Source: Escherichia phage JS10
Length of the DNA: 64,000 bases
Sequence record: EU863409
Direction: 5' to 3' (one strand)
The notes beneath the pieces are model-generated. The model saw nothing but the letters and a program-made list of their open reading frames with translations. It was not told where the DNA came from and made no database searches. Shown piece after piece: positions 527-28,785 of this stretch; positions within the stretch are counted from its first letter, which is position 1, and every line of letters starts with the position of its first letter. The position numbers and the translations under genes were made by a program.

Positions 527-736
527 TTAGCAAGACATAGAGGAGCTAAACCAGAAACCTTCACCATCTGGGATACCGTAATCATCACGGACCCATTCGT
601 AATCATCATATTCCGGACTAGAAGCCGGAATATATTCTTCGCCACCAGCGTGGAAGTGCTGACCTGTTTCGTCAGCCACGGACTGGCCTTTACGTACTAA
701 TTCACGGATTTGTTTTTCAATTTCATCAATAGTCAT
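527..736 (-). CDS. small acidic protein, WxSSSxxC-tail paralog family member 2 of 5
   Basis: 69 aa; ends ...GFWFSSSMSC; stop TGC-TAA fused to GGAAT SD of next gene. Confidence 0.55.
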   Translation of the reverse strand: MTIDEIEKQIRELVRKGQSVADETGQHFHAGGEEYIPASSPEYDDYEWVRDDYGIPDGEGFWFSSSMSC

Positions 737-745
737 TTTATTACC

Positions 746-943
746 TTAGCATTCGTAAGAGGAGGACACCCAAGAGGTACCACTAATAGTAATACAACCG
801 TTATAAAGCGTGATATGTCGTTCTAGGTCACGGACACCATCAATATAGATATCAGCTTCTTCGCGTTCTTCTTTACAAATTTGAATAACGTTTTCAATTG
901 CTGCAGCGGCAGTTCGGATTGCACAATCTAATTCACGAGACAT
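746..943 (-). CDS. small acidic protein, WxSSSxxC-tail paralog family member 3 of 5
   Basis: 65 aa; ends ...TSWVSSSYEC; same TGC-TAA-GG junction. Confidence 0.55.
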   Translation of the reverse strand: MSRELDCAIRTAAAAIENVIQICKEEREEADIYIDGVRDLERHITLYNGCITISGTSWVSSSYEC

Positions 944-952
944 AATATTTCC

Positions 953-1234
953 TTAACATTCAGAAGAAGAGGACACCCAACCACCATTTTCCAGGTCAGT
1001 TGTATAGTCATGAGTATTAACAATAGCCCATTCAGGATGACCATCTTCTTCCCAATGGGCAAGGTCAGCTTTCAAGGCACCAGGAGAATAATAGTCACCG
1101 CCCATACCGCGAGCAGGGTATATATTAAAATGAGTCTCATATTTGTCTGCAATTTCCTCGGCACGACGAATAGCTTCATGAATTTCTTTTACTGCGGCCA
1201 GAAGCTCTGGGTTGTTATGATTATCATTCATCAT
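953..1234 (-). CDS. small acidic protein, WxSSSxxC-tail paralog family member 4 of 5
   Basis: 93 aa; ends ...GGWVSSSSEC; same junction architecture. Confidence 0.55.
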   Translation of the reverse strand: MMNDNHNNPELLAAVKEIHEAIRRAEEIADKYETHFNIYPARGMGGDYYSPGALKADLAHWEEDGHPEWAIVNTHDYTTDLENGGWVSSSSEC

Positions 1235-1243
1235 AGCTTTTCC

Positions 1244-1534
1244 TTAGCACATTGCCGAAGAGGAGACCCAGGCACCAACTGTAACGACACCGTTTTCAAC
1301 TTCACCGCCATTGTTTTCAATTTCATCTTTAAACCACTGGGAGCATTCATAACCAACAGGGTAGTATGTACGTCCTGAGCCATAATCACCTGTTCCGAAT
1401 TGAATACCATACTTATCGGCAATAGCTTCACATTTGTGTTCGATGGTATCCACTTTATTCAGAAGAGCATAGATAGCCTTTTCTGCAGATTTCTCGTCGT
1501 TGTATTCAGGGATTTCAATTTCAATTTTATTCAT
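1244..1534 (-). CDS. small acidic protein, WxSSSxxC-tail paralog family member 5 of 5
   Basis: 96 aa; ends ...GAWVSSSAMC; ATG overlaps stop of upstream membrane-protein gene (ATGA). Confidence 0.55.
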   Translation of the reverse strand: MNKIEIEIPEYNDEKSAEKAIYALLNKVDTIEHKCEAIADKYGIQFGTGDYGSGRTYYPVGYECSQWFKDEIENNGGEVENGVVTVGAWVSSSAMC

Positions 1535-1908
1535 GATTTACATTCCTTAATAAAGGTTTCAAGGTCATTACGGTTGGTTTGTTTTACATACTCATTATAA
1601 TTAGCCATCTCTAAAGCATATCTCTTACGGATGGGGGCATTCAAAGCATTTGTATGGCAAATATCATACACGAGAGGGATAAAATAAGCCACGACAGCCG
1701 GAGCGATTATCATATAGAAACCCATCTCAATAGGCATGACTCCTTCGATTGCAGCCATAACTGTGGTCATTACCAGACCAACCAGACCGCCGAGCATACC
1801 GGTGACAATTCCCATAAATAAGGAAATAGCAATATCATATTCAGCCAATTGATAAACATGTGATGAAAGACTAGGCCGCTCCATTTTGAACCTCTTTAGC
1901 GTATTCAC
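1531..1908 (-). CDS. hypothetical membrane protein (2-3 predicted TM helices)
   Basis: Long hydrophobic stretches (GIVTGMLGGLVGLVMTTVMAAIEGV, MIIAPAVVAYFIPLV); start may be the internal Met at 1884. Confidence 0.45.
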   Translation of the reverse strand: MNTLKRFKMERPSLSSHVYQLAEYDIAISLFMGIVTGMLGGLVGLVMTTVMAAIEGVMPIEMGFYMIIAPAVVAYFIPLVYDICHTNALNAPIRKRYALEMANYNEYVKQTNRNDLETFIKECKS

Positions 1909-2413
1909 GGCATTCTTTAATAAAACGATTAAGTTTACGTTGCTGTTTACGACTCTCTGATGTGTATTCGTTGGCTAAAATAATAAGCTCATCTTTATCG
2001 TAGTTTTTGATATCCGAATAACTCGGACGGCGGTCGACCATACCAAATACATCCCCATTTTCTAGTGCCACATAACATACTAAATGATAATCATCATCTG
2101 CAACATTAATATGTACACAGTCAGTACTCTCGTTTAAAGAATATACTGAATATCTCACTCCAGCGAATTTAGCACTCTGTATACCCAATCCAAGGTCAAT
2201 AATTTCTAAAGCTTCTGCAAAAGAAAGGTCTTCAGCTAAAGCAAAGATAAAGGGTAATTTGGTAGTATATCCACGTCTACTTGTTCGACTTAAGAAATCA
2301 TTGGAATAACCTAGGTCTTGGCGAATTCTATAAAGAACAGTATTAGTTTCATGGGAAAGACCACTATGTTTAAACCAGTCTACATTTGATATAAGGTCGG
2401 TATATAAGCTCAT
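1871..2413 (-). CDS. hypothetical protein
   Basis: 180-aa ORF, same strand as neighbours; no recognisable motif. Confidence 0.45.
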   Translation of the reverse strand: MSLYTDLISNVDWFKHSGLSHETNTVLYRIRQDLGYSNDFLSRTSRRGYTTKLPFIFALAEDLSFAEALEIIDLGLGIQSAKFAGVRYSVYSLNESTDCVHINVADDDYHLVCYVALENGDVFGMVDRRPSYSDIKNYDKDELIILANEYTSESRKQQRKLNRFIKECREYAKEVQNGAA

Positions 2414-2426
2414 AATATTCTCCTCT

Positions 2427-2444
2427 CCTCCAAATAGGGAGACC
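2427..2444 (-). terminator. hairpin GGGAGAC-UUCG-GUCUCCC (minus-strand reading), putative terminator/processing site
   Basis: Perfect 7-bp GC-rich stem with UUCG loop after stop of 2462-3055 gene; same hairpin occurs at 40883-40900 on the other strand. Confidence 0.35.
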
Positions 2445-2461
2445 GAAGTCTCCCGGTAACA

Positions 2462-3055
2462 TTACTTAAGTGAATTAATGTAGTCGTCGATATCGGCAGA
2501 AGTCGTATCCATTCCAACTTGTGGGCCTTTAAACGTTTCTACACGTAGCAGGGTATCTTCAATATCAATCTTAGTCAGTGCAGCGATTTCAACCACATCA
2601 TCGGCAGTAGCAATACCAAGGGCAGCCATATTACGAGTTTCACGGATGTACTCGAGCTTAACAGCCAGTTCCTGACGAGAGTCATCAAGTTCCTTGACCT
2701 TCAGTTTAATTTCATTACGCATTTCGATATAATCGTCAGCTTTCTTACGAAGTTGAGTGGCTGTACGACGATAAAGGAGGCCGAGTTTAGCATGTACCTG
2801 AACATCGGCGCCTTCGGCAATCAGTTTACGAATTTCGCGTTCTTTAGAAGCAGCCAGTTGGTCTTTTTCATTTGCCAATGCACGAATGCGTTTTTCTTCA
2901 TTCACAGACTTAACATGAGCAGTCTGGAGTTCGGTAATTTTATCAATCAGGGTAGAAGCAGCTTTAGTATACTGGTCTTCGATTGACAGGTTCTGAGTCA
3001 TTGCGGTACCCAGTTTAGAACGGATGAACTCAACAATTTTCTTTAAAGTATTCAT
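2462..3055 (-). CDS. coiled-coil protein, possibly PspA/IM30-like
   Basis: About 198 aa from Met with SD GAAGGAAA; long charged heptad-like helical sequence; PspA resemblance is compositional only. Confidence 0.4.
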
Positions 3056-3098
3056 AGTATTTCCTTCAGTCGGTTGGTATTTTGTAATCCATGAGGAC

Positions 3099-3128
3099 AT
3101 TATACCCTGTCCTCTGAGGGTTGTAAAC
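3099..3128 (-). promoter_or_regulatory. sigma70-type early promoter (GTTTACA-N17-TATAAT)
   Basis: Minus-strand GTTTACA and TATAAT 17 nt apart, directly upstream of 2462-3055 gene. Confidence 0.5.
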
Positions 3129-3132
3129 ATTT

Positions 3133-3546
3133 TTATTTCATTTTGGCGAGGCAGATTTCATTGGCTTCCCATTGAGCTTGCTTAATAATAGCTTTGGATA
3201 CAGGAACCTTTTGACCATAAGTTTTTGACGTTGAGAGAACAATATATTTGTTTGCCTCATTATGCCAACCTAGTGATTTTTCACCATGACTACCTTTAAC
3301 CACAGCTGACACCTCAACAGAGCAACCACCATCAGAAATCTTGGTTTCTACAATCCATTCATTTCTCTCGGCAGCTTCAATTTCCGATCTCCTTTTTTCT
3401 TCATACATGGCGGCCCAATCAGTTTTTGCCAAGCTGAAAGTAAGAGCTTTCTCTAATTCTTTGGCAGCTTTTTGTTGTTCAGGCGTTAATGAATTGTACA
3501 ACTCTTGCATTTCTTTATCTTCGATATTCATTATGCTCTCCTTCAC
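3133..3546 (-). CDS. hypothetical protein
   Basis: 137-aa ORF with upstream early-type promoter. Confidence 0.45.
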
Positions 3547-3566
3547 TCCGTTGTTTTGATAGGTCT

Positions 3567-3595
3567 ATAGTATCATATTCTACGAAAGAGTAAAC
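3567..3595 (-). promoter_or_regulatory. early-type promoter GTTTAC-N17-TACTAT with conserved downstream element
   Basis: Minus strand GTTTAC...TACTATAGACCTATCAAAAC; copy of a recurring motif. Confidence 0.45.
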
Positions 3596-3619
3596 ATCTT
3601 TTTTAAACTTTTAGAAACA

Positions 3620-3646
3620 AAAAAGGCCCAACCTTTCGGAAGGGCC
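3620..3646 (-). terminator. rho-independent terminator, repeated element copy 1
   Basis: GGCCCAACCTTTCGGAAGGGCC hairpin followed by U-run on minus strand; 29-bp identical to copies at 4242-4269 and 51444-51471. Confidence 0.55.
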
Positions 3647-3651
3647 TCGAA

Positions 3652-4206
3652 TCAGTTCTTGTAGAACCGGAATGGGTTCACGTGGAAGGCTAACATAGCT
3701 TTAGGGATTTTACGAGACAAAAGGCTCTTAAGCTTCCAGCCACAGTAAACGCGAAGGTAAAATGTGATTCCGCCGACCTTAAGATAAGGAACTGAAGCAA
3801 ATACACCCCAGGCATCATCATTCCACATCCACAACCAACCATGGTGGGCTTTATCAGGAGAACCTGATTCTACGTCAGGATTACCACGATAATGGAATTC
3901 CGAGCTACAATCACGGCCTAGTTTATGATAAGCAAAGTTATAAGCTTTATTTCGCCATAGCCAAGCTACTCTCTGGAGATAAACACCGCCAGGCATTTTC
4001 CTGATTTTAGCCCAACGTTTAATATGACCTTTATCGCCGTCAATTGGATTATCGTATGTCATCATCCAATCAAAACCATATGGCAATTTACCAGTCTTTT
4101 TATTATGAAAAGGAACCACAAAAGGCGCAAGGATAACGGCTAGAACCATAGAGATAAAATCTAGTGGGACCAACAGAATCCAACTCAAATATTTTAAAAG
4201 TTTCAT
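3652..4206 (-). CDS. hypothetical membrane-anchored protein
   Basis: 184 aa with N-terminal hydrophobic segment; minus-strand TATAAATA 27 bp upstream. Confidence 0.5.
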   Translation of the reverse strand: MKLLKYLSWILLVPLDFISMVLAVILAPFVVPFHNKKTGKLPYGFDWMMTYDNPIDGDKGHIKRWAKIRKMPGGVYLQRVAWLWRNKAYNFAYHKLGRDCSSEFHYRGNPDVESGSPDKAHHGWLWMWNDDAWGVFASVPYLKVGGITFYLRVYCGWKLKSLLSRKIPKAMLAFHVNPFRFYKN

Positions 4207-4439: not shown

Positions 4440-4515
4440 TGGTCGAGACAGTAGGGATCGAACCTACGACCTACGGTTTAGAAGACCGTTGCTCTTCCTT
4501 CTGAGCTATGCCTCG
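4440..4515 (-). tRNA. tRNA-Arg (anticodon TCT)
   Basis: Manual cloverleaf: acceptor CGAGGCA/TGTCTCG, D-stem GCTC/GAGC, anticodon stem ACGGT/ACCGT with loop CTTCTAA, T-stem GTAGG/CCTAC, T-loop TTCGATC, encoded CCA; 76 nt. Confidence 0.85.
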
Positions 4516-4519
4516 TATT

Positions 4520-4594
4520 TGGCGGACATGCATGGATTCGAACCATGGACCAATTGATTAACAGTCAACTGCTCTACCACTGAGCTACACATCC
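4520..4594 (-). tRNA. tRNA-Asn (anticodon GTT)
   Basis: Manual cloverleaf: D-stem GCTC/GAGC, anticodon loop CTGTTAA, T-stem CATGG/CCATG, T-loop TTCGAAT, 3-prime GCCA; 75 nt. Confidence 0.85.
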
Positions 4595-4598
4595 AAAT

Positions 4599-4672
4599 TG
4601 GTGGCCCTGGGTGGAATCGAACCACCATCCAGCGATTATGAGTCGCTCGCTTGACCGTCCAGCTACAGGGCC
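4599..4672 (-). tRNA. tRNA-Met or tRNA-Ile2 (anticodon CAT)
   Basis: Manual cloverleaf: acceptor GGCCCTG/CAGGGCC, anticodon stem AGCGA/TCGCT with loop CTCATAA, T-stem GGTGG/CCACC, T-loop TTCGATT, ACCA end; 74 nt. Confidence 0.8.
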
Positions 4673-20489: not shown

Positions 20490-20497
20490 TATAAATA
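20490..20497 (+). promoter_or_regulatory. late promoter box TATAAATA (gene 9)
   Basis: Exact octamer 27 bp upstream of gp9 ATG. Confidence 0.6.
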
Positions 20498-23860: not shown

Positions 23861-25386
23861 TGTCAACAAACACACTAAAACACATTAGTGATAAATCGGA
23901 ATTCAAATCATTCGACCCTACTGGGTCGAATTTCCCGCCTGATATTACTAATGTTCAAGAAGCATTGGCAACTATTTCATTAATCGGCGTCACAGGTAAT
24001 GTTCCTTCAGCCACAGAAACGTCCCAAGGCATTATTCGTCTTGCCACCACACAAGAAGTAATGGATGGATTGGATGCTTATAGTGCAGTGACTCCGGCAA
24101 CTTTAAAAGCTCGTTTAGATATTCCTACTCAGGCAACAGAAACTTATGTAGGTATCACCCGTTATGCTACTAACGCTGAAGCCATAGCAGGCACAGAGCC
24201 CCAGGCTGCAATCGTAGCAACCTCTTTGAAAGCGGTAATGGATTATACATTTGAGAACCGTTTATCAACAGAGAACGCCACAGGCGTTATCAAGATTTCA
24301 ACTACACCTGCTGCATTAGCTGGTACCGATGATACCACAGCAATGTCCCCACTTAAAGTATCGCAAGCAATTGGTGCGGCCACAGCAGCGTTACCGGTTT
24401 ATTCTACGGCAACGACCACAAATGAAGGTTTGGTTCGTTTAGCTACTAATGCTGAAGTTGGCAATGGAAGTCTTTCGGTAGGTATTGCTATTTCTCCAGC
24501 CGGATTAGCCACATTAACTTCCACCGAAGCCAGAAGTGGTATTATTAAACTCGCAGGTTGGGATATGGTATCTAATGGTACTGACCATACTGCCGCTGTT
24601 ACTCCGGCATCTTTGCTAGCTCGTACAGGTAATACAGGACGAATTGGCTTGGTTCGTTTATCTACTACAGTTGGACAAGGCGATGGTAATACGGCCCTGG
24701 CTTATAATGCTAACGTTATTTCTACTTCAGGTGGTGAAATATGGGGTACTTTAAACGTTAATGGCACATTACGTCGTAATGGTGTTGATGTTGTTACCCA
24801 CGACCAATTATCAGATAGCGTTCCGGTAGGTACTATTTGTATGTGGGGTGGACATGAAGGTAATATCCCAGGCAAATGGCGAGCTTGTGTAGGTGGGACT
24901 TATACTGGCGGTGCATATTTAAATGCTGTTGGCGGACGTTGGGGATGGTGGGGTGCTATTCCAGATTTCCGTGGATTATATCCTCGCGGTGCTAACATGG
25001 TCGGTGGATATTCTGAAGGTGAAGTTAACCCACATATTGCCGGTAACCGAGGAGAAGACGGTAAAGGTAAAGCCCGTTTAGGTAACGGTGTAGGTTCGTT
25101 CCCACAATCTTCTGTTCAAGCCCAAGCATTACGTTATCATAAACACGCCGGTGGTTTTGGTGAACATGATAACTATGGTGCTTTTGGTAACACCGCTAAC
25201 TCTGGGTATGTTGGTACTCGTAAAGGACTTGACTGGGATAACCGTAGTTATTATACTAACGAAGGGTTTGAGACCACTGAACCTTGGAACCGTGATGGCC
25301 ATACCACACTGAATAGTGAAGGACTTATTGCAAATGAAACACGTCCTTGGACAATGTCCGTTCTTTTTATTATTAAAGTAGAATAA
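23860..25386 (+). CDS. 12: gp12 short tail fiber
   Basis: 508 aa between 11 and wac. Confidence 0.9.
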   Translation: MSTNTLKHISDKSEFKSFDPTGSNFPPDITNVQEALATISLIGVTGNVPSATETSQGIIRLATTQEVMDGLDAYSAVTPATLKARLDIPTQATETYVGITRYATNAEAIAGTEPQAAIVATSLKAVMDYTFENRLSTENATGVIKISTTPAALAGTDDTTAMSPLKVSQAIGAATAALPVYSTATTTNEGLVRLATNAEVGNGSLSVGIAISPAGLATLTSTEARSGIIKLAGWDMVSNGTDHTAAVTPASLLARTGNTGRIGLVRLSTTVGQGDGNTALAYNANVISTSGGEIWGTLNVNGTLRRNGVDVVTHDQLSDSVPVGTICMWGGHEGNIPGKWRACVGGTYTGGAYLNAVGGRWGWWGAIPDFRGLYPRGANMVGGYSEGEVNPHIAGNRGEDGKGKARLGNGVGSFPQSSVQAQALRYHKHAGGFGEHDNYGAFGNTANSGYVGTRKGLDWDNRSYYTNEGFETTEPWNRDGHTTLNSEGLIANETRPWTMSVLFIIKVE

Positions 25387-25395
25387 GGGTAAAAA

Positions 25396-27795
25396 ATGAT
25401 TAACAAATTGGAACTTAGTGAGTTACCATTTGTTGACGGCGTACCTGATGCTCCTCAAAAGCGTATCCAATGGATACGCGAGGGTGATTGTATGTCTGCG
25501 GCAAAAACAAAATACGGCAATGAAGGTAATTTGAACGCTGCTGCTTTAGGAGTTCAGAAAAACGTAGAAGCTCTTGATGCCAACGATTTAAAAACTGCTG
25601 ATAAAGTTAATGAGCTTATAGAAAACGTTAATAATATCAATGACGCTTTAGAAATGTCAACAGATATTTCTATCATTCAACAAATAGAGAAAAACCGTGT
25701 TGATATTGTAGACCTTAAAAAAGTCACCGAAGATACAACAGAAAAATTGGACACCTTAACAACCAATTTTGATTTCTTGCGTGAAGATGTTGGTTATCAT
25801 GACCCTTTACAAGACGGCCCATATTTAACTGTACGTGAAAATATTGTTCTTCTTAAAACTGAAATAGGTCATTATGAAAACCAGGATATAAACGGCAATC
25901 CACTGCCTCCTGGCGAAACTAATGAAGCCACTGGTATAAAACGCCGCATCATGGATAATACCACTGAATTGGTGGACCATCGTCTCCGCCTTGATACCCT
26001 TGAAAGAAACTATGAAGATTCTGATGTTGGACAATTGGGTATTAAATTAAATGAAATTCGCGCCGAATTAGGACCACATTCTGATACGGTAGGTAAACAA
26101 CCTGCATATACCCGAATTTCAGTATTAGAAACGGCTGCAGTTAATTTTAATACAGCTATTGACGAAATTAAGGATAATATTGATTTCTCTGGTATGCCTA
26201 TAAAGGACCGAGTAACTACTTTAGAAAGCAAAACCTTTACCTTAGAAAATTCGGTTAATGTTGATTTAAAACCTAGAGTAACTTCTATAGAAACTCAAAT
26301 CGGATCCGAGTCTGCACCGGCATCTATTAATGGTCGTTTAAGCGGACTTCGTACTGATGTAAATGATTTAAAAACCGTAGTAGGTGTTAGTTCAAGTGAT
26401 GGCCTACGTTTCCAAGTTACTGATATCAACCGCCGTTTAGGTAGTGAAGTATCTCCGGCTGCAGGAACCATTAATAAGCGTTTAAATGATGTTATTATTC
26501 AAGCAAACCAATCCACCTCGTCTATCCAGGATATTCAGGTAAAAATTGGTAACAACCAATCCGGTATTAAGGGTACTTTACTTAAACTCACCGATAAGGT
26601 TGACGGGACGAACCCTAACGGAGCTACCGTAGAAGAACGTGGTCTTATTAATGCGGTTACTTCTTTAGAAACCCAGATGCAAGGTAAATTAGGTGATGCA
26701 CCTTCTGATGGTAAACTCTATGCACGTCGAAATGCGGCATGGGCTGAAGTTGTTAATAATTCCACAGAAATAGAAACCGTTAAAGCCGATTTAGTTGTTA
26801 CCGACGGTAAAGTGACCGCGTTAACTTCCAGAGTAGATGGTAATGATACCTCAATTTCTTCTCTTGATACTCGTACCGGTGCATTAAACACTTCGGTTGG
26901 CGAGATTAAAGCTGATATAGTTTCTATAAAGGCTAAAGATGATGAACAGGATGGTCGTTTAACAGCACTTGAATCTAGTGATGTGACCATTAACGGTAAA
27001 ATTGCTGCTCTTGAAACTAAGACAGATACCACTGATGATGATGTCACAGCACTGGCTTTAGACGTTTCTTCTTTAGAGAACCAATTGACTCCTATAAAAG
27101 CCGATATTACCAAAAACAAAGGTGATATTGTTGCCTTAACTGGTCGAGTGGCTTCTACTGAAGGCGAAATTAATGCAATTAAAGTTGATACAGCCAAAAT
27201 TGCTCCTTTAACAACTAGAGTTACTACGGCAGAAGGTAAAATCACTACTTTAGAAACAGGGCTTGCCGCTGTTAAAGTCGAATCCGATAAGGTAGCAGGT
27301 ATTAATACCCGCCTTAGCACTGCAGAAGGTGACATCGGAACACTTAAAACAGGGTTGGCTGAAGTTAAGGGTGAATCCGATAAAGTAGCAGCTATAGATA
27401 CCCGTTTAGGTGTTGTTGAAGTTGAATCAGGTAAAGTAGCAGGAATCGATGCTCGTTTGGGTGATGTTGAAGGCGAAGTTAGTACTCTTGAAACGGGTTT
27501 AGCTGCCGTTAAAGTCGAATCCGATAAGGTAGCAGGTATTAATACCCGTTTAGGTACGGTCGAAGGTAAAGTTGGTACTCTTGAAACAGGTTTGGCTGCT
27601 GTTAAAGTTGAATCTGATAAAGTTGCTGACTTAGGAACCCGTTTAACCGCCGCCGAAGGTAAAATTACGGCCTTAGAAACAGAATTATCTAAACGTCCAC
27701 CGGTGGCTCCTGCCGCAGACGGACTTCCGTATGTTCTGGTTGATAACGCATGGGTATTATTGTCTGATTTTGTGACTTTAAACTCAGCGCCATAA
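25396..27795 (+). CDS. wac: fibritin (wac), expanded 799-aa form
   Basis: N-terminus LPFVDGVPDA... and foldon-like C-terminus DGLPYVLVDNAWVLLSDF match T4 fibritin; extra length is tandem repeats. Confidence 0.95.
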   Translation: MINKLELSELPFVDGVPDAPQKRIQWIREGDCMSAAKTKYGNEGNLNAAALGVQKNVEALDANDLKTADKVNELIENVNNINDALEMSTDISIIQQIEKNRVDIVDLKKVTEDTTEKLDTLTTNFDFLREDVGYHDPLQDGPYLTVRENIVLLKTEIGHYENQDINGNPLPPGETNEATGIKRRIMDNTTELVDHRLRLDTLERNYEDSDVGQLGIKLNEIRAELGPHSDTVGKQPAYTRISVLETAAVNFNTAIDEIKDNIDFSGMPIKDRVTTLESKTFTLENSVNVDLKPRVTSIETQIGSESAPASINGRLSGLRTDVNDLKTVVGVSSSDGLRFQVTDINRRLGSEVSPAAGTINKRLNDVIIQANQSTSSIQDIQVKIGNNQSGIKGTLLKLTDKVDGTNPNGATVEERGLINAVTSLETQMQGKLGDAPSDGKLYARRNAAWAEVVNNSTEIETVKADLVVTDGKVTALTSRVDGNDTSISSLDTRTGALNTSVGEIKADIVSIKAKDDEQDGRLTALESSDVTINGKIAALETKTDTTDDDVTALALDVSSLENQLTPIKADITKNKGDIVALTGRVASTEGEINAIKVDTAKIAPLTTRVTTAEGKITTLETGLAAVKVESDKVAGINTRLSTAEGDIGTLKTGLAEVKGESDKVAAIDTRLGVVEVESGKVAGIDARLGDVEGEVSTLETGLAAVKVESDKVAGINTRLGTVEGKVGTLETGLAAVKVESDKVADLGTRLTAAEGKITALETELSKRPPVAPAADGLPYVLVDNAWVLLSDFVTLNSAP
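27235..27690 (+). repeat. tandem coding repeats (about 90 bp) in wac
   Basis: Repeated LETGLAAVKVESDKVAGINTRLxTxEGxIGT units visible at DNA and protein level. Confidence 0.8.
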
Positions 27796-27800
27796 TAAAA

Positions 27801-27818
27801 GGGCTTCGGCCCTTTTTT
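27801..27818 (+). terminator. rho-independent terminator after wac
   Basis: GGGC-ttcg-GCCC hairpin followed by TTTTTT. Confidence 0.7.
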
Positions 27819-27820
27819 GC

Positions 27821-27828
27821 TATAAATA
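27821..27828 (+). promoter_or_regulatory. late promoter box TATAAATA (gene 13)
   Basis: Exact octamer 22 bp upstream of gp13 ATG. Confidence 0.6.
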
Positions 27829-27849
27829 CGGTTATTAGAGGAATAAAAC

Positions 27850-28785
27850 ATGGCAAGTGAATCATATAACCCTAAGCAACTCAAGGACGCTATTCTGCGC
27901 CGCCTGGGTGCACCGATTACAAATATTGAAGTAACTACTGACCAAGTATATGATTGCATCCAGCGCGCCCTGGAGCTCTACGGCGAATACCATTATAACG
28001 GGTATAACAAAGGTTATCAGGCTTTTTATATTGGCCATGACGATGAAGAAAAATTCCGTAATGGCGTATTCGACCTTAAAGGACGTAATATATTTGCAGT
28101 AACACAAATTTTGAGAACTAACGTTGGCTCTTTAACATCTATGGACGGGCAAGCAACTTATCCATGGTTTACAGATTTTGTACTAGGTTTGGCAGGTATT
28201 AATGGTGGTCTTGGGTCTTCATGTAATAGTTTTGGGCCTAATGCCTTCGGCGCCGACCTTGGCTATTTTACACAATTAATGCAATATCGTTCTATGATGC
28301 AGGACCTTTTGGTTCCGCTGCCTGATTATTGGTATAATGATGCCACTGAACAATTGAAGGTAATGGGCAACTTTGTTAAAGGCGACTTTATTGTAATTGA
28401 AGTTTATACCCGTTCATTTAATGGCGTTGATTCCATGGTTGGGAATACAGCAGGATATGGATATGCTTCTGGTGGCTGTGACGAAAATGAATGGAGCCCT
28501 GGGGCTATTTGGGACAATCCTGCACGTCGAATTTCAGGAATGAGAGCTGGCGAGGACCTTGGACTACAAGATGGCGCGTATAATAACCGTTGGGTCAAAG
28601 ATTACGCTACGGCATTAGTTAAAGAGGTCAATGGTAATATTTTAGCCAAACACCAAGGTATGCAATTAGCCGGCGGAACCACTGTAGATGGCATTCGATT
28701 GATTGAAGAAGCTCGTTTAGAAAAAGAACGTCTTCGCGAAGAATTAGATTTGCTCGACCCACCAACACCTATTTTAATTGGATAA
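27850..28785 (+). CDS. 13: gp13 neck protein
   Basis: 311 aa (T4 about 309). Confidence 0.9.

What the first reader, a model, noticed from the sequence alone, without database searches (positions are those of the whole stretch)
25396..27795. Fibritin expanded to 799 aa by tandem repeats with a conserved foldon
Seen: N-terminus and C-terminal foldon-like segment match T4 fibritin (about 487 aa by recall), but the distal coiled-coil carries extra tandem units of about 30 aa (LETGLAAVKVESDKVAGINTRL...) that are also near-identical at DNA level (27235-27690). Inference: longer whiskers; the repeats are a substrate for recombinational length variation.
Basis: partly seen in the sequence, partly recalled or inferred. 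Interest (0 to 1): 0.5.

Follow-up and report, generated by a model that had tools for sequence, protein, structure and literature searches.

The report
JS98-type two-foldon phage fibritin
This is the already-annotated neck-whisker (fibritin) gene of the T4-like coliphage JS10, a known "JS98-type" fibritin with two foldon motifs joined by a coiled-coil spacer that varies in length between relatives, so it is an ordinary member of a described class.

Summary
The ORF (25396-27795, +, 799 aa) is real. Its product is 100% identical to Wac of Escherichia phage JS10 (Dhakavirus). Residues 5-429 are collinear with T4 fibritin 4-431. It sits where short (455-459 aa) fibritins end. A ~307-aa helical spacer and the terminal foldon (aa 768-793) follow it. 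This architecture is published (Letarov & Krisch 2013) as two T4-like foldon motifs with a coiled-coil spacer of variable length.

Only the distal ~170 aa of the spacer are 31-aa (93-nt) tandem units. They are not near-identical at DNA level: 65-78% identity, longest exact repeat 41 nt, many synonymous differences. They are old units, not fresh duplications.

Thirteen Dhakavirus wac genes (529-827 aa) differ by in-frame indels in this zone, most of them whole 31-aa or 17-aa units. JS10 differs from its ~99% identical relative EcWhh-1 by exactly one 93-nt unit. Recombinational length variation is therefore supported. Longer whiskers are plausible (about +45 nm) but untested. An assembly artefact is unlikely.

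Verdict: already known, low interest.

The parts
25396..27795 (+). wac gene, fibritin (neck whisker / collar fibre), 799 aa; identical to Wac of Escherichia phage JS10
   Evidence: ORF; PHROG 1056 'fibritin neck whisker' E 7e-197; P0001 100% identity over 799 aa; lies between gp12 and gp13 homologues
25396..25545 (+). conserved N-terminal neck-attachment domain (aa 1-50)
   Evidence: Aligns with the T4 fibritin N-terminus; PDB N-terminal fragments 1ox3/2ibl E 1.8e-13 over aa 6-68; nearly invariant columns across 25-28 homologues
25408..26682 (+). T4-like segmented coiled-coil rod (aa 5-429), collinear with T4 fibritin aa 4-431
   Evidence: phmmer against PDB 3j2o/2bsg; BLASTP against T4 wac 35% identity
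26683..26751 (+). internal foldon-like motif GKLGDAPSDGKLYARRNAAWAEV (aa 430-452), predicted beta-hairpin at aa 442-445 / 448-451
   Evidence: Pfam Fibritin_C 98 bits covers aa 371-454, profile 2-92 of 93; score 53 against the T4 foldon, 0 of 5000 shuffles; aligns with the terminal foldon of 455-459-aa fibritins, with A435 P436 D438 Y442 R444 W449 invariant in 28 sequences; AF2 hairpin; rmsd 0.7 A to 1nay/1rfo over 17-18 residues, but E-values not significant
26770..27156 (+). proximal spacer (aa 459-587): helical, heptad periodicity 3.5; 'xGK-I-T-A-L' motifs spaced 49, 14, 14, 28, 14 residues apart
   Evidence: Motif and periodicity analysis; AF2 helices aa 459-541 and 548-595
27157..27672 (+). 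distal spacer (aa 588-759): 31-aa / 93-nt tandem units U0 (degenerate), U1, U2, U3, U4; hydrophobic periodicity 31/9 = 3.44; predicted as one continuous helix
   Evidence: TRF period 93; repeat family D1; unit table; periodicity; AF2 helix aa 599-765 with pLDDT 82-92
27373..27474 (+). nested 17-aa / 51-nt duplication inside U2 (ESDKVAAIDTRLGVVEV / ESGKVAGIDARLGDVEG), 78% DNA identity
   Evidence: TRF period 51 at 27372-27472; absent from JS98, NC-G, ABTNLsp5 and UP19
27476..27568 (+). the single 93-nt unit present in JS10 and IME08 but absent from EcWhh-1 and JS98; bounded by the junction repeat GAAGGnnAAGTTnGTACTCTTGAAAC
   Evidence: DNA alignment A1; repeat family D2 at 27467-27494 and 27560-27587
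27697..27774 (+). terminal foldon PPVAPAADGLPYVLVDNAWVLLSDFV (aa 768-793), predicted hairpin at aa 779-782 / 785-788 followed by a short helix
   Evidence: sequence; AF2; almost invariant in all relatives
27797..27818 (+). stem-loop with a UUCG tetraloop followed by a T run, immediately after the wac stop codon (probable terminator)
   Evidence: Sequence; RNA fold -11.1 kcal/mol, z -2.48; not called by the consensus terminator scan
27821..27828 (+). T4-type late promoter motif TATAAATA upstream of gene 13
   Evidence: 19 matches in the window against 8.1 expected; the nearest upstream + strand copy is at 20490, before the gp9 homologue

Best explanation
This is the wac gene of phage JS10 (genus Dhakavirus), encoding a JS98-type fibritin. 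Shown here: an N-terminal neck-binding domain and a T4-like segmented coiled-coil rod (aa 1-429) are followed by an internal foldon-like beta-hairpin (aa ~430-452). That hairpin sits exactly where short fibritins end. After it come a ~307-residue alpha-helical spacer (aa 459-765) and a second, terminal foldon (aa 768-793). The whole spacer is built from a recurring 'xGK-I-T-A-L' motif. Spacings are multiples of 7 in the proximal half and 31 residues in the distal half. The 31-aa units are old, diverged at synonymous sites and conserved at protein level. Length differences among relatives are in-frame indels in this zone, mostly whole 31-aa or 17-aa units, bounded by the repeated unit junctions. 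Inferred: unit loss and gain occur by unequal (homeologous) recombination or slippage between units, and by exchange between co-infecting phages, since the gene is a mosaic. By analogy with T4 and with published JS98 biochemistry, the foldons nucleate trimerisation. The protein would then form the collar and whisker fibres on gp13, and the terminal foldon region would contact the knee of the long tail fibre, aiding fibre attachment and holding fibres retracted. Each unit would add about 4.6 nm and the whole spacer about 45 nm. If fully extended, the fibre would be roughly 90-100 nm, against 53 nm in T4.
For: Identity and context. The two-foldon architecture rests on several results. Pfam Fibritin_C matches internally. 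The foldon motif survey found two foldons in 16 of 49 homologues by regex, and one search added P0017-23. Both segments score 53 against the T4 foldon with 0 of 5000 shuffles reaching it. In alignment A3 the internal motif aligns with the terminal foldon of 455-459-aa fibritins, with six invariant residues. AF2 predicts hairpins at both sites and helices between them. The Foldseek hit list is dominated by foldon chains. Repeat anatomy. Age of the units. Length polymorphism. One-unit indel against EcWhh-1. Published description of the same architecture, its variable spacer and self-trimerisation of JS98 fibritin: PMC3797505. T4 function and dimensions: PMC3004832 and PMC12929587.
Against: No experiment or multimer model here shows that either foldon trimerises, that the spacer is a trimeric coiled coil, or that the virion fibres are longer. 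AF2 was run on a monomer, and the internal hairpin has only moderate confidence (pLDDT about 65 in the long model and about 81 in the short one). Foldseek E-values for the hairpin are not significant (0.4 or worse). The 31/9 periodicity departs from canonical heptads, so the distal zone may not be a regular coiled coil. The direction of the JS10/EcWhh-1 event (loss or gain) is inferred only from the absence of any near-identical unit pair.
Confidence: 0.87

Rival explanations
1. One reading: a T4-type fibritin whose distal coiled coil was recently inflated by tandem amplification of near-identical units and is still actively expanding and contracting.
For: Tandem 93-nt units exist. There is a 41-nt exact repeat between U1 and U3. 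Unit number differs between very close relatives.
Against: Units are only 65-78% identical at DNA level, with 8-13 synonymous-only codon differences per pair. None of the 13 genomes has a unit pair above 89% over 93 nt. Half of the extension is non-tandem. The extension begins after an internal foldon, so it was added as a module or by an ancient duplication and is not an insertion into the T4 rod.
Confidence: 0.08
2. The repeat region, and hence the 799-aa length, is an assembly artefact.
For: Repeats are a classic source of mis-assembly. One relative (CUA3, L008) has its wac region filled with N. The 827-aa variant comes from an 'UNVERIFIED' record. The exact 799-aa sequence is on record from only one contig.
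Against: The longest exact repeat is 41 nt and the units are distinguishable, so ordinary reads place them unambiguously. IME08, an independent genome only 75% identical overall, has the same 799-aa gene with the same unit layout and no gaps. All 13 variants stay in frame and keep the terminal foldon.
Confidence: 0.03
3. The internal foldon is only a decaying relic of an ancestral C-terminus and the distal extension is a functionally neutral appendage. On this view only the terminal foldon matters and spacer length has no phenotypic consequence.
For: The internal motif has lost the hydrophobic tail of the T4 foldon (AEVVNNS instead of VLLSTFL) and the DG turn (NA). Spacer length varies from 35 to about 349 residues among viable phages. 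Letarov & Krisch treat the T4 and JS98 types as interconvertible by a single deletion or duplication.
Against: Six motif residues (A, P, D, Y, R, W) are invariant across 28 sequences that are only 36-98% identical to JS10 in this region, including lineages where the motif is internal. The unit protein sequences are conserved despite synonymous divergence. Both observations indicate purifying selection.
Confidence: 0.2

Closest known systems
JS98-type fibritin (phages JS98 / JS98C3; Letarov & Krisch 2013, PMC3797505, citing Latypov et al. 2007)
   Same: Same genus and same architecture: T4-like rod, two T4-like foldon motifs and a coiled-coil spacer of variable length. JS98 Wac is 91% identical to this protein, and the two are collinear apart from a 48-aa (31+17) difference in the repeat zone.
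   Different: JS10 carries one more 31-aa unit and the nested 17-aa duplication (799 against 751 aa). The unit-level description in this report (31/17-aa units, junction repeats, 3.44 periodicity) was not found in the one paper read.
Bacteriophage T4 fibritin (gpwac, 487 aa; PDB 1aa0, 1avy, 2bsg, 3j2o; foldon 1rfo)
   Same: Homologous N-terminal domain and rod (35% identity over aa 7-449), the same gene position between genes 12 and 13, and a foldon at the C-terminus. The T4 tail (aa 431-487) aligns best with JS10's last unit plus terminal foldon (aa 743-794).
   Different: T4 has a single foldon and no spacer. In JS10 the salt-bridge pair of the T4 foldon (E461/R471) is kept in the internal motif (D434/R444) but replaced by V770/L781 in the terminal one, which also has one extra residue (APAADG against APRDG). 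This is read from the alignments. The structural role of those T4 residues is from my own knowledge.
Short single-foldon fibritins (455-459 aa, e.g. Pectobacterium phage PM2, P0025-P0033)
   Same: Collinear with JS10 up to and including the foldon at about residue 436.
   Different: They stop there. JS10 continues for another ~345 residues.
Foldon-like hairpin in another phage fibre: the phage JBD30 baseplate protein (PDB 8rk3, DUF2793)
   Same: The motif DAPSDGKxYARxxxAW is 59% identical over 22 residues, with rmsd 1.3 A to the AF2 model. This shows that the hairpin also occurs internally in fibrous phage proteins.
   Different: It is an unrelated protein in a different virion location. The match is limited to the hairpin and the fold E-value is 0.43.

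Membership tests
Fibritin (gpwac) of T4-like phages | Conserved ~50-aa N-terminal neck-attachment domain | tested here: met
   aa 5-68 align with the T4 N-terminus; PDB 1ox3/2ibl E 1.8e-13; nearly invariant columns in homologue alignments
Fibritin (gpwac) of T4-like phages | Gene located between gene 12 (short tail fibre) and gene 13 (neck protein) | tested here: met
   Flanking ORFs match gp12 (Pfam S_tail_recep_bd, PHROG 910) and the gene 13 head-tail adaptor (PHROG 211). The order is the same in JS98 and T4.
Fibritin (gpwac) of T4-like phages | Long rod homologous to the T4 segmented coiled coil | tested here: met
   phmmer E 2e-72 over aa 5-429; BLASTP 35% identity, E 3e-81; PHROG 1056 E 7e-197
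Fibritin (gpwac) of T4-like phages | Parallel trimeric fibre present in the virion as collar and whiskers | not testable with these tools
   Only a monomer AF2 model was possible. Trimerisation of JS98 fibritin is reported in PMC3797505.
JS98-type fibritin | Two T4-like foldon motifs in one chain | tested here: met
   aa 430-452 and 768-793; each scores 53 against the T4 foldon with 0 of 5000 shuffles reaching it; Pfam Fibritin_C matches internally; hairpins predicted at both sites
JS98-type fibritin | Coiled-coil spacer between the foldons, variable in length among relatives | tested here: met
   Helical prediction for aa 459-765; 3.5 / 3.44 hydrophobic periodicity; spacers of 35-349 residues among homologues
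JS98-type fibritin | No dedicated downstream chaperone gene (unlike Aeh1-type) | tested here: met
   Only 54 nt separate wac from gene 13, and they hold a stem-loop and a late promoter
Foldon (T4 fibritin C-terminal trimerisation domain) | Sequence signature AP-x-DG-xx-Y-x-R/x...W with a beta-hairpin | tested here: met
   Both segments carry it. AF2 strands fall at the positions homologous to the T4 hairpin. rmsd is 0.7 A to 1nay/1rfo over 17-18 residues.
Foldon (T4 fibritin C-terminal trimerisation domain) | Statistically significant fold match to solved foldon structures | tested here: inconclusive
   Best Foldseek E-values are 0.43-4 because the motif is only about 20 residues long. The hit list is nevertheless dominated by foldon chains.
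Foldon (T4 fibritin C-terminal trimerisation domain) | Forms a trimeric beta-propeller that nucleates folding | not testable with these tools
   This needs a multimer prediction or biochemistry.

The most novel reading that the evidence does not exclude
The internal foldon may be a functional node (a register clamp or hinge) that splits the whisker into a fixed T4-like proximal arm and a modular distal arm. On this reading the number of 31-aa units (about 4.6 nm each) sets where the terminal foldon meets the long tail fibre. That would tune how readily fibres are retracted or released, giving a heritable, recombination-adjustable setting for adsorption control. The unusual 31/9 (3.44) periodicity would give the distal arm a distinct supercoil or stiffness.
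Probability: 0.12. Interest if true: 0.5.

Novelty: already known. Interest (0 to 1): 0.17.

Why it matters
It matters little as a discovery. The protein is a deposited, correctly named sequence (JS10 Wac), and its two-foldon, variable-spacer architecture is in the literature. The modest added value lies in three points:
- The spacer polymorphism mostly comes in whole 31-aa and 17-aa units, bounded by junction repeats.
- The units are ancient and under purifying selection, not freshly amplified.
- The two-foldon layout extends beyond Dhakavirus, to Yersinia-phage and metagenomic fibritins.

If whisker length tunes tail-fibre retraction, the natural 529-827-aa series would be a ready-made allelic set for testing how T4-like phages sense their environment. 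The variant foldons could also interest protein engineers who use the T4 foldon as a trimerisation tag.

Tried and rejected
1. JS10 itself is not in the 'phages' collection; the best megablast hit is 95%. Identity to JS10 came only from the protein search.
2. My foldon regex missed internal motifs in which DG is replaced by DA, DT or DN (P0017-P0023). Reading the sequences corrected this.
3. Foldseek of the 56-aa internal-foldon model against the PDB gave no significant E-value. I used it only as qualitative support.
4. The consensus terminator scan did not call the stem-loop after wac. An RNA fold supports it.
5. The 413-aa antisense ORF across the repeats has no PHROG match and I treat it as spurious.
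6. I considered and rejected an assembly artefact and a recent amplification (see the rival explanations).
7. I considered testing co-variation with gp36 (the Letarov 2005 hypothesis, recalled from my own knowledge). From my recollection of the T4 gene order, the window covers roughly the baseplate to head genes and would not hold the long-tail-fibre genes, so I did not pursue it; I did not check the window for them.
8. The answer was already settled.
Full report
**What is at the coordinates**

An ORF runs on the + strand from 25396 to 27795 and encodes 799 aa. It lies after homologues of T4 gp10, gp11 and gp12 and before gp13 and gp14. This is the position of wac in T4 and JS98. PHROG 1056 'fibritin neck whisker' matches at E 7e-197. 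The product is 100% identical over all 799 residues to 'Wac fibritin neck whiskers [Escherichia phage JS10]' from a 171,451-bp contig. The closest genomes in the phage collection are all Dhakavirus: EcWhh-1, NC-G, JS98 and VR5. The window is therefore JS10 or an essentially identical phage, and the gene is already public and correctly named.

**Relation to T4 fibritin**

Residues 5-429 align collinearly with T4 fibritin residues 4-431 (phmmer against PDB 3j2o/2bsg, E about 2e-72; BLASTP 35% identity, E 3e-81). The extra ~312 residues are therefore not spread through the rod. They all lie after residue 429.

Pfam's Fibritin_C model covers the last T4 coiled-coil segments and the foldon. It matches residues 371-454 over profile positions 2-92 of 93 (98 bits, cut-off 21), which is inside the protein. 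Directly after the T4-collinear part comes GKLGDAPSDGKLYARRNAAWAEV (aa 430-452). The true C-terminus carries PPVAPAADGLPYVLVDNAWVLLSDFV (aa 768-793). Each segment scores 53 (BLOSUM62, local) against the T4 foldon, and 0 of 5000 shuffles reach that score. BLASTP's first HSP aligns the T4 foldon with the internal motif and its second HSP aligns it with the terminal one. The whole T4 tail (aa 431-487) aligns best with JS10 aa 743-794, which is the last repeat unit plus the terminal foldon.

**The internal motif sits at an ancestral C-terminus**

Among 49 homologues, a group of 455-459-aa fibritins (P0025-P0033, e.g. Pectobacterium phage PM2) end with a foldon at about residue 436. In alignment A3 the JS10 internal motif aligns column for column with those terminal foldons. 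A435, P436, D438, Y442, R444 and W449 are invariant in all 28 sequences, which are 36-98% identical to JS10.

Other layouts also occur:
- Two foldons with short spacers: P0024 (541 aa), P0029 (509 aa) and, once DG-to-DA/DT/DN variants are allowed, P0017-P0023, including Yersinia phage vB_YenM_P8.
- A foldon at about residue 438 followed by an unrelated ~140-aa domain: P0034-39, e.g. Yersinia phage MHG19.
- A 1016-aa protein with three such motifs: P0049.

**Structure prediction**

AF2 on the monomer of aa 400-799 (25-sequence alignment, mean pLDDT 78.6) gives these elements:
- strands at aa 442-445 and 448-451 (internal foldon)
- helices at aa 459-541, 548-595 and 599-765
- strands at aa 779-782 and 785-788, then a short helix at aa 789-791 (terminal foldon)

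A 56-aa model of aa 415-470 gives helix, hairpin, helix, with pLDDT about 81 in the hairpin. Foldseek against the PDB gives no significant E-value for so small a motif. The list is still dominated by foldon chains: 1nay and 1rfo at rmsd 0.7 Å over 17-18 residues, 4ncw, T4 fibritin fragments and foldon-tagged glycoproteins. The top hit is a phage JBD30 baseplate protein (8rk3) at 59% identity over 22 residues (also the best sequence hit, E 3.5e-4). Trimer formation could not be tested.

**Anatomy of the spacer and the repeats**

TRF reports period-93 arrays (27404-27623 and 27469-27667, 76-78% matches) and a period-51 array (27372-27472). At protein level the units are:

| Unit | Residues | Note |
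|---|---|---|
| U0 | 588-618 | degenerate |
| U1 | 619-649 | |
| U2 | 650-697 | carries a nested 17-aa duplication |
| U3 | 698-728 | |
| U4 | 729-759 | |
| start of a sixth unit | from 760 | runs into the terminal foldon |

The motif [DENKQ][GD][KRDE][ILV]x[ASTG][LI] ('EGKITAL') occurs 11 times in aa 455-766, against 0.08 expected from shuffles. Its spacings are 49, 14, 14, 28, 14, 24, 31, 48, 31 and 31. The hydrophobic periodicity is 3.5 in aa 455-588 and 3.44 (= 31/9) in aa 588-760. The whole spacer therefore looks like an old repeat array: canonical heptads proximally, and four heptads plus three residues distally. T4's last segment (NTAKGNISSLQGDV) carries the same motif.

**The units are not near-identical**

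Pairwise DNA identity of the units is 65-78% (54-60% to U0). The longest exact direct repeat is 41 nt (27271, offset 237). U1 and U3 share a 22-aa identical block that has 11 differences in 66 nt. Over the whole unit they have 16 identical codons, 11 synonymous-only differences and 4 amino-acid changes. In none of 13 Dhakavirus wac genes does any 93-nt window exceed 89% identity to another. The units are therefore old and protein-constrained, and none is a fresh duplication.

**Length variation among relatives**

| wac length (aa) | Phage(s) |
|---|---|
| 529 | MN04 (also Bp7, P0014) |
| 689 | PSD2002 |
| 720 | ABTNLsp5, ESCO10 |
| 734 | UP19 |
| 737 | vB_EcoM_005 |
| 751 | JS98, NC-G |
| 768 | VR5, EcWhh-1 |
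| 799 | JS10, IME08 |
| 827 | Ec2-ASingh |

The alignment places every difference as an in-frame indel in the spacer, most of them whole 31-aa or 17-aa units. Both foldons are kept in all of them. Spacer lengths differ from JS10 by 31, 48 (31+17), 62 (2×31), 65 or 79 (2×31+17) residues, or by large deletions.

JS10 is 98-100% identical to EcWhh-1 over most of the gene, apart from two patches of 84-91% around aa 126-200 and 301-375, and the only length difference between them is one 93-nt unit (window about 27476-27568). That unit is bounded by copies of GAAGGnnAAGTTnGTACTCTTGAAAC. It is only 71-76% identical to its neighbours U1 and U4. Loss in the EcWhh-1/JS98 lineage, or acquisition by exchange, is therefore more likely than a recent duplication in JS10. 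This is inference. Sliding-window identities show that the gene is a recombination mosaic.

**Artefact?**

An artefact is unlikely. The units are distinguishable and the longest exact repeat is 41 nt. IME08, an independent genome only about 75% identical overall, has the same 799-aa, gap-free layout. Read-level heterogeneity could not be examined.

**What is already known**

Letarov & Krisch (2013, PMC3797505) describe the JS98-type fibritin as having two T4-like foldon motifs separated by a spacer with a coiled-coil pattern that 'may vary in length', citing Latypov et al. 2007 on JS98C3. They state that the T4 and JS98 types are interconvertible by one deletion or duplication. They also report that T4 and JS98 fibritins trimerise using only the foldon motifs.

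T4 fibritin is a 530-Å trimeric fibre. It promotes long-tail-fibre attachment and holds the fibres retracted, and its C-terminal end binds the 'kneecap' region of the fibre (PMC3004832). Twelve fibritin trimers bind gp13, six as collar and six as whiskers (PMC12929587).

**Mechanism**

Shown here:
- the two-foldon architecture
- helical propensity and periodicity of the spacer
- unit-scale polymorphism in the repeat zone
- junction repeats at the one-unit indel
- purifying selection on both the motif and the units

Inferred:
- The protein forms a trimeric coiled coil.
- Each unit adds about 4.6 nm and the spacer about 45 nm, assuming roughly 0.148 nm rise per residue.
- The total length is about 90-100 nm if the fibre is extended.
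- Unit loss and gain occur by unequal or homeologous recombination or by slippage.
- Function is as in T4.

Transcriptionally, wac is followed by a UUCG-tetraloop stem-loop (27797-27816, -11.1 kcal/mol, z -2.48) and a T run. A late-promoter motif TATAAATA for gene 13 sits at 27821-27828. The nearest upstream + strand late motif is at 20490, so wac is probably the last gene of a gp9-to-wac late transcript. That last step is inference.

**Verdict**

- **Observation:** partly confirmed. The ORF, fibritin identity, terminal foldon and ~31-aa tandem units are real. 'Near-identical at DNA level' is wrong, and the internal foldon was missed.
- **Interpretation:** partly supported. Length variation in the repeat zone is well supported by comparison. 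Longer whiskers remain untested. 'Expansion by tandem repeats' explains only about half of the excess length.
- **Novelty:** already known.
- **Interest:** low.

Noticed in passing
window 26718-27959 (-): A 413-aa ORF runs antisense across the wac spacer and repeats and into gene 13. It has no PHROG match and overlaps two well-supported genes, so it is most likely a by-product of the repetitive, stop-poor composition.
   Followed up: partly
window 25396-27795 compared with L001-L012: The wac gene is a recombination mosaic. JS10 is about 99% identical to EcWhh-1 over most of the gene but only 84-85% at aa ~301-375, where it is 93% identical to the ABTNLsp5, MN04 and PSD2002 group. A second patch of about 90% lies at aa ~126-200.
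   Followed up: partly
window 27797-27828: The 54-nt wac-to-gene-13 spacer holds a UUCG-tetraloop stem-loop plus a T run (-11.1 kcal/mol, z -2.48) and a T4 late-promoter motif TATAAATA. The consensus terminator scan missed the stem-loop.
   Followed up: partly
window 4440-4672 (-): There is a cluster of three tRNA genes (Arg-TCT, Asn-GTT, Met-CAT), found by ARAGORN and Rfam.
   Followed up: no
L008 (vB_EcoM_CUA3, PP410321.1) 1-~3500; L013 (ESCO10, OM386655.1) 1166-3328; L006 (IME08) 1432-3900: These are annotation or assembly problems in relatives. Most of the CUA3 wac region is runs of N and is unannotated. The 720-aa ESCO10 wac is labelled 'phospholipase'. IME08 wac is annotated from an upstream start that overlaps gene 12.
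   Followed up: partly
P0049 (1016 aa, metagenomic) and P0034-P0039 (591-593 aa, e.g. Yersinia phage MHG19): These are fibritin homologues with other C-terminal layouts. P0049 has three foldon-like motifs (aa 681, 847, 976) set in apparently non-coiled-coil sequence. P0034-39 have a foldon at about residue 438 followed by an unrelated ~140-aa domain.
   Followed up: no
window 25150-25205 (+), inside gene 12: TRF reports a short 27-nt tandem repeat (2.1 copies, 80% matches) near the 3' end of the short-tail-fibre gene.
   Followed up: no
window 767-793 aa versus 430-452 aa of wac (27694-27774 versus 26683-26751): The two foldons have diverged in complementary ways. The internal one keeps the N-terminal half of the T4 signature (D/E-AP-x-DG-xx-Y-x-R) and the terminal one keeps the C-terminal half (WVLLSxF). 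They score only 24 against each other, while each scores 53 against T4.
   Followed up: partly
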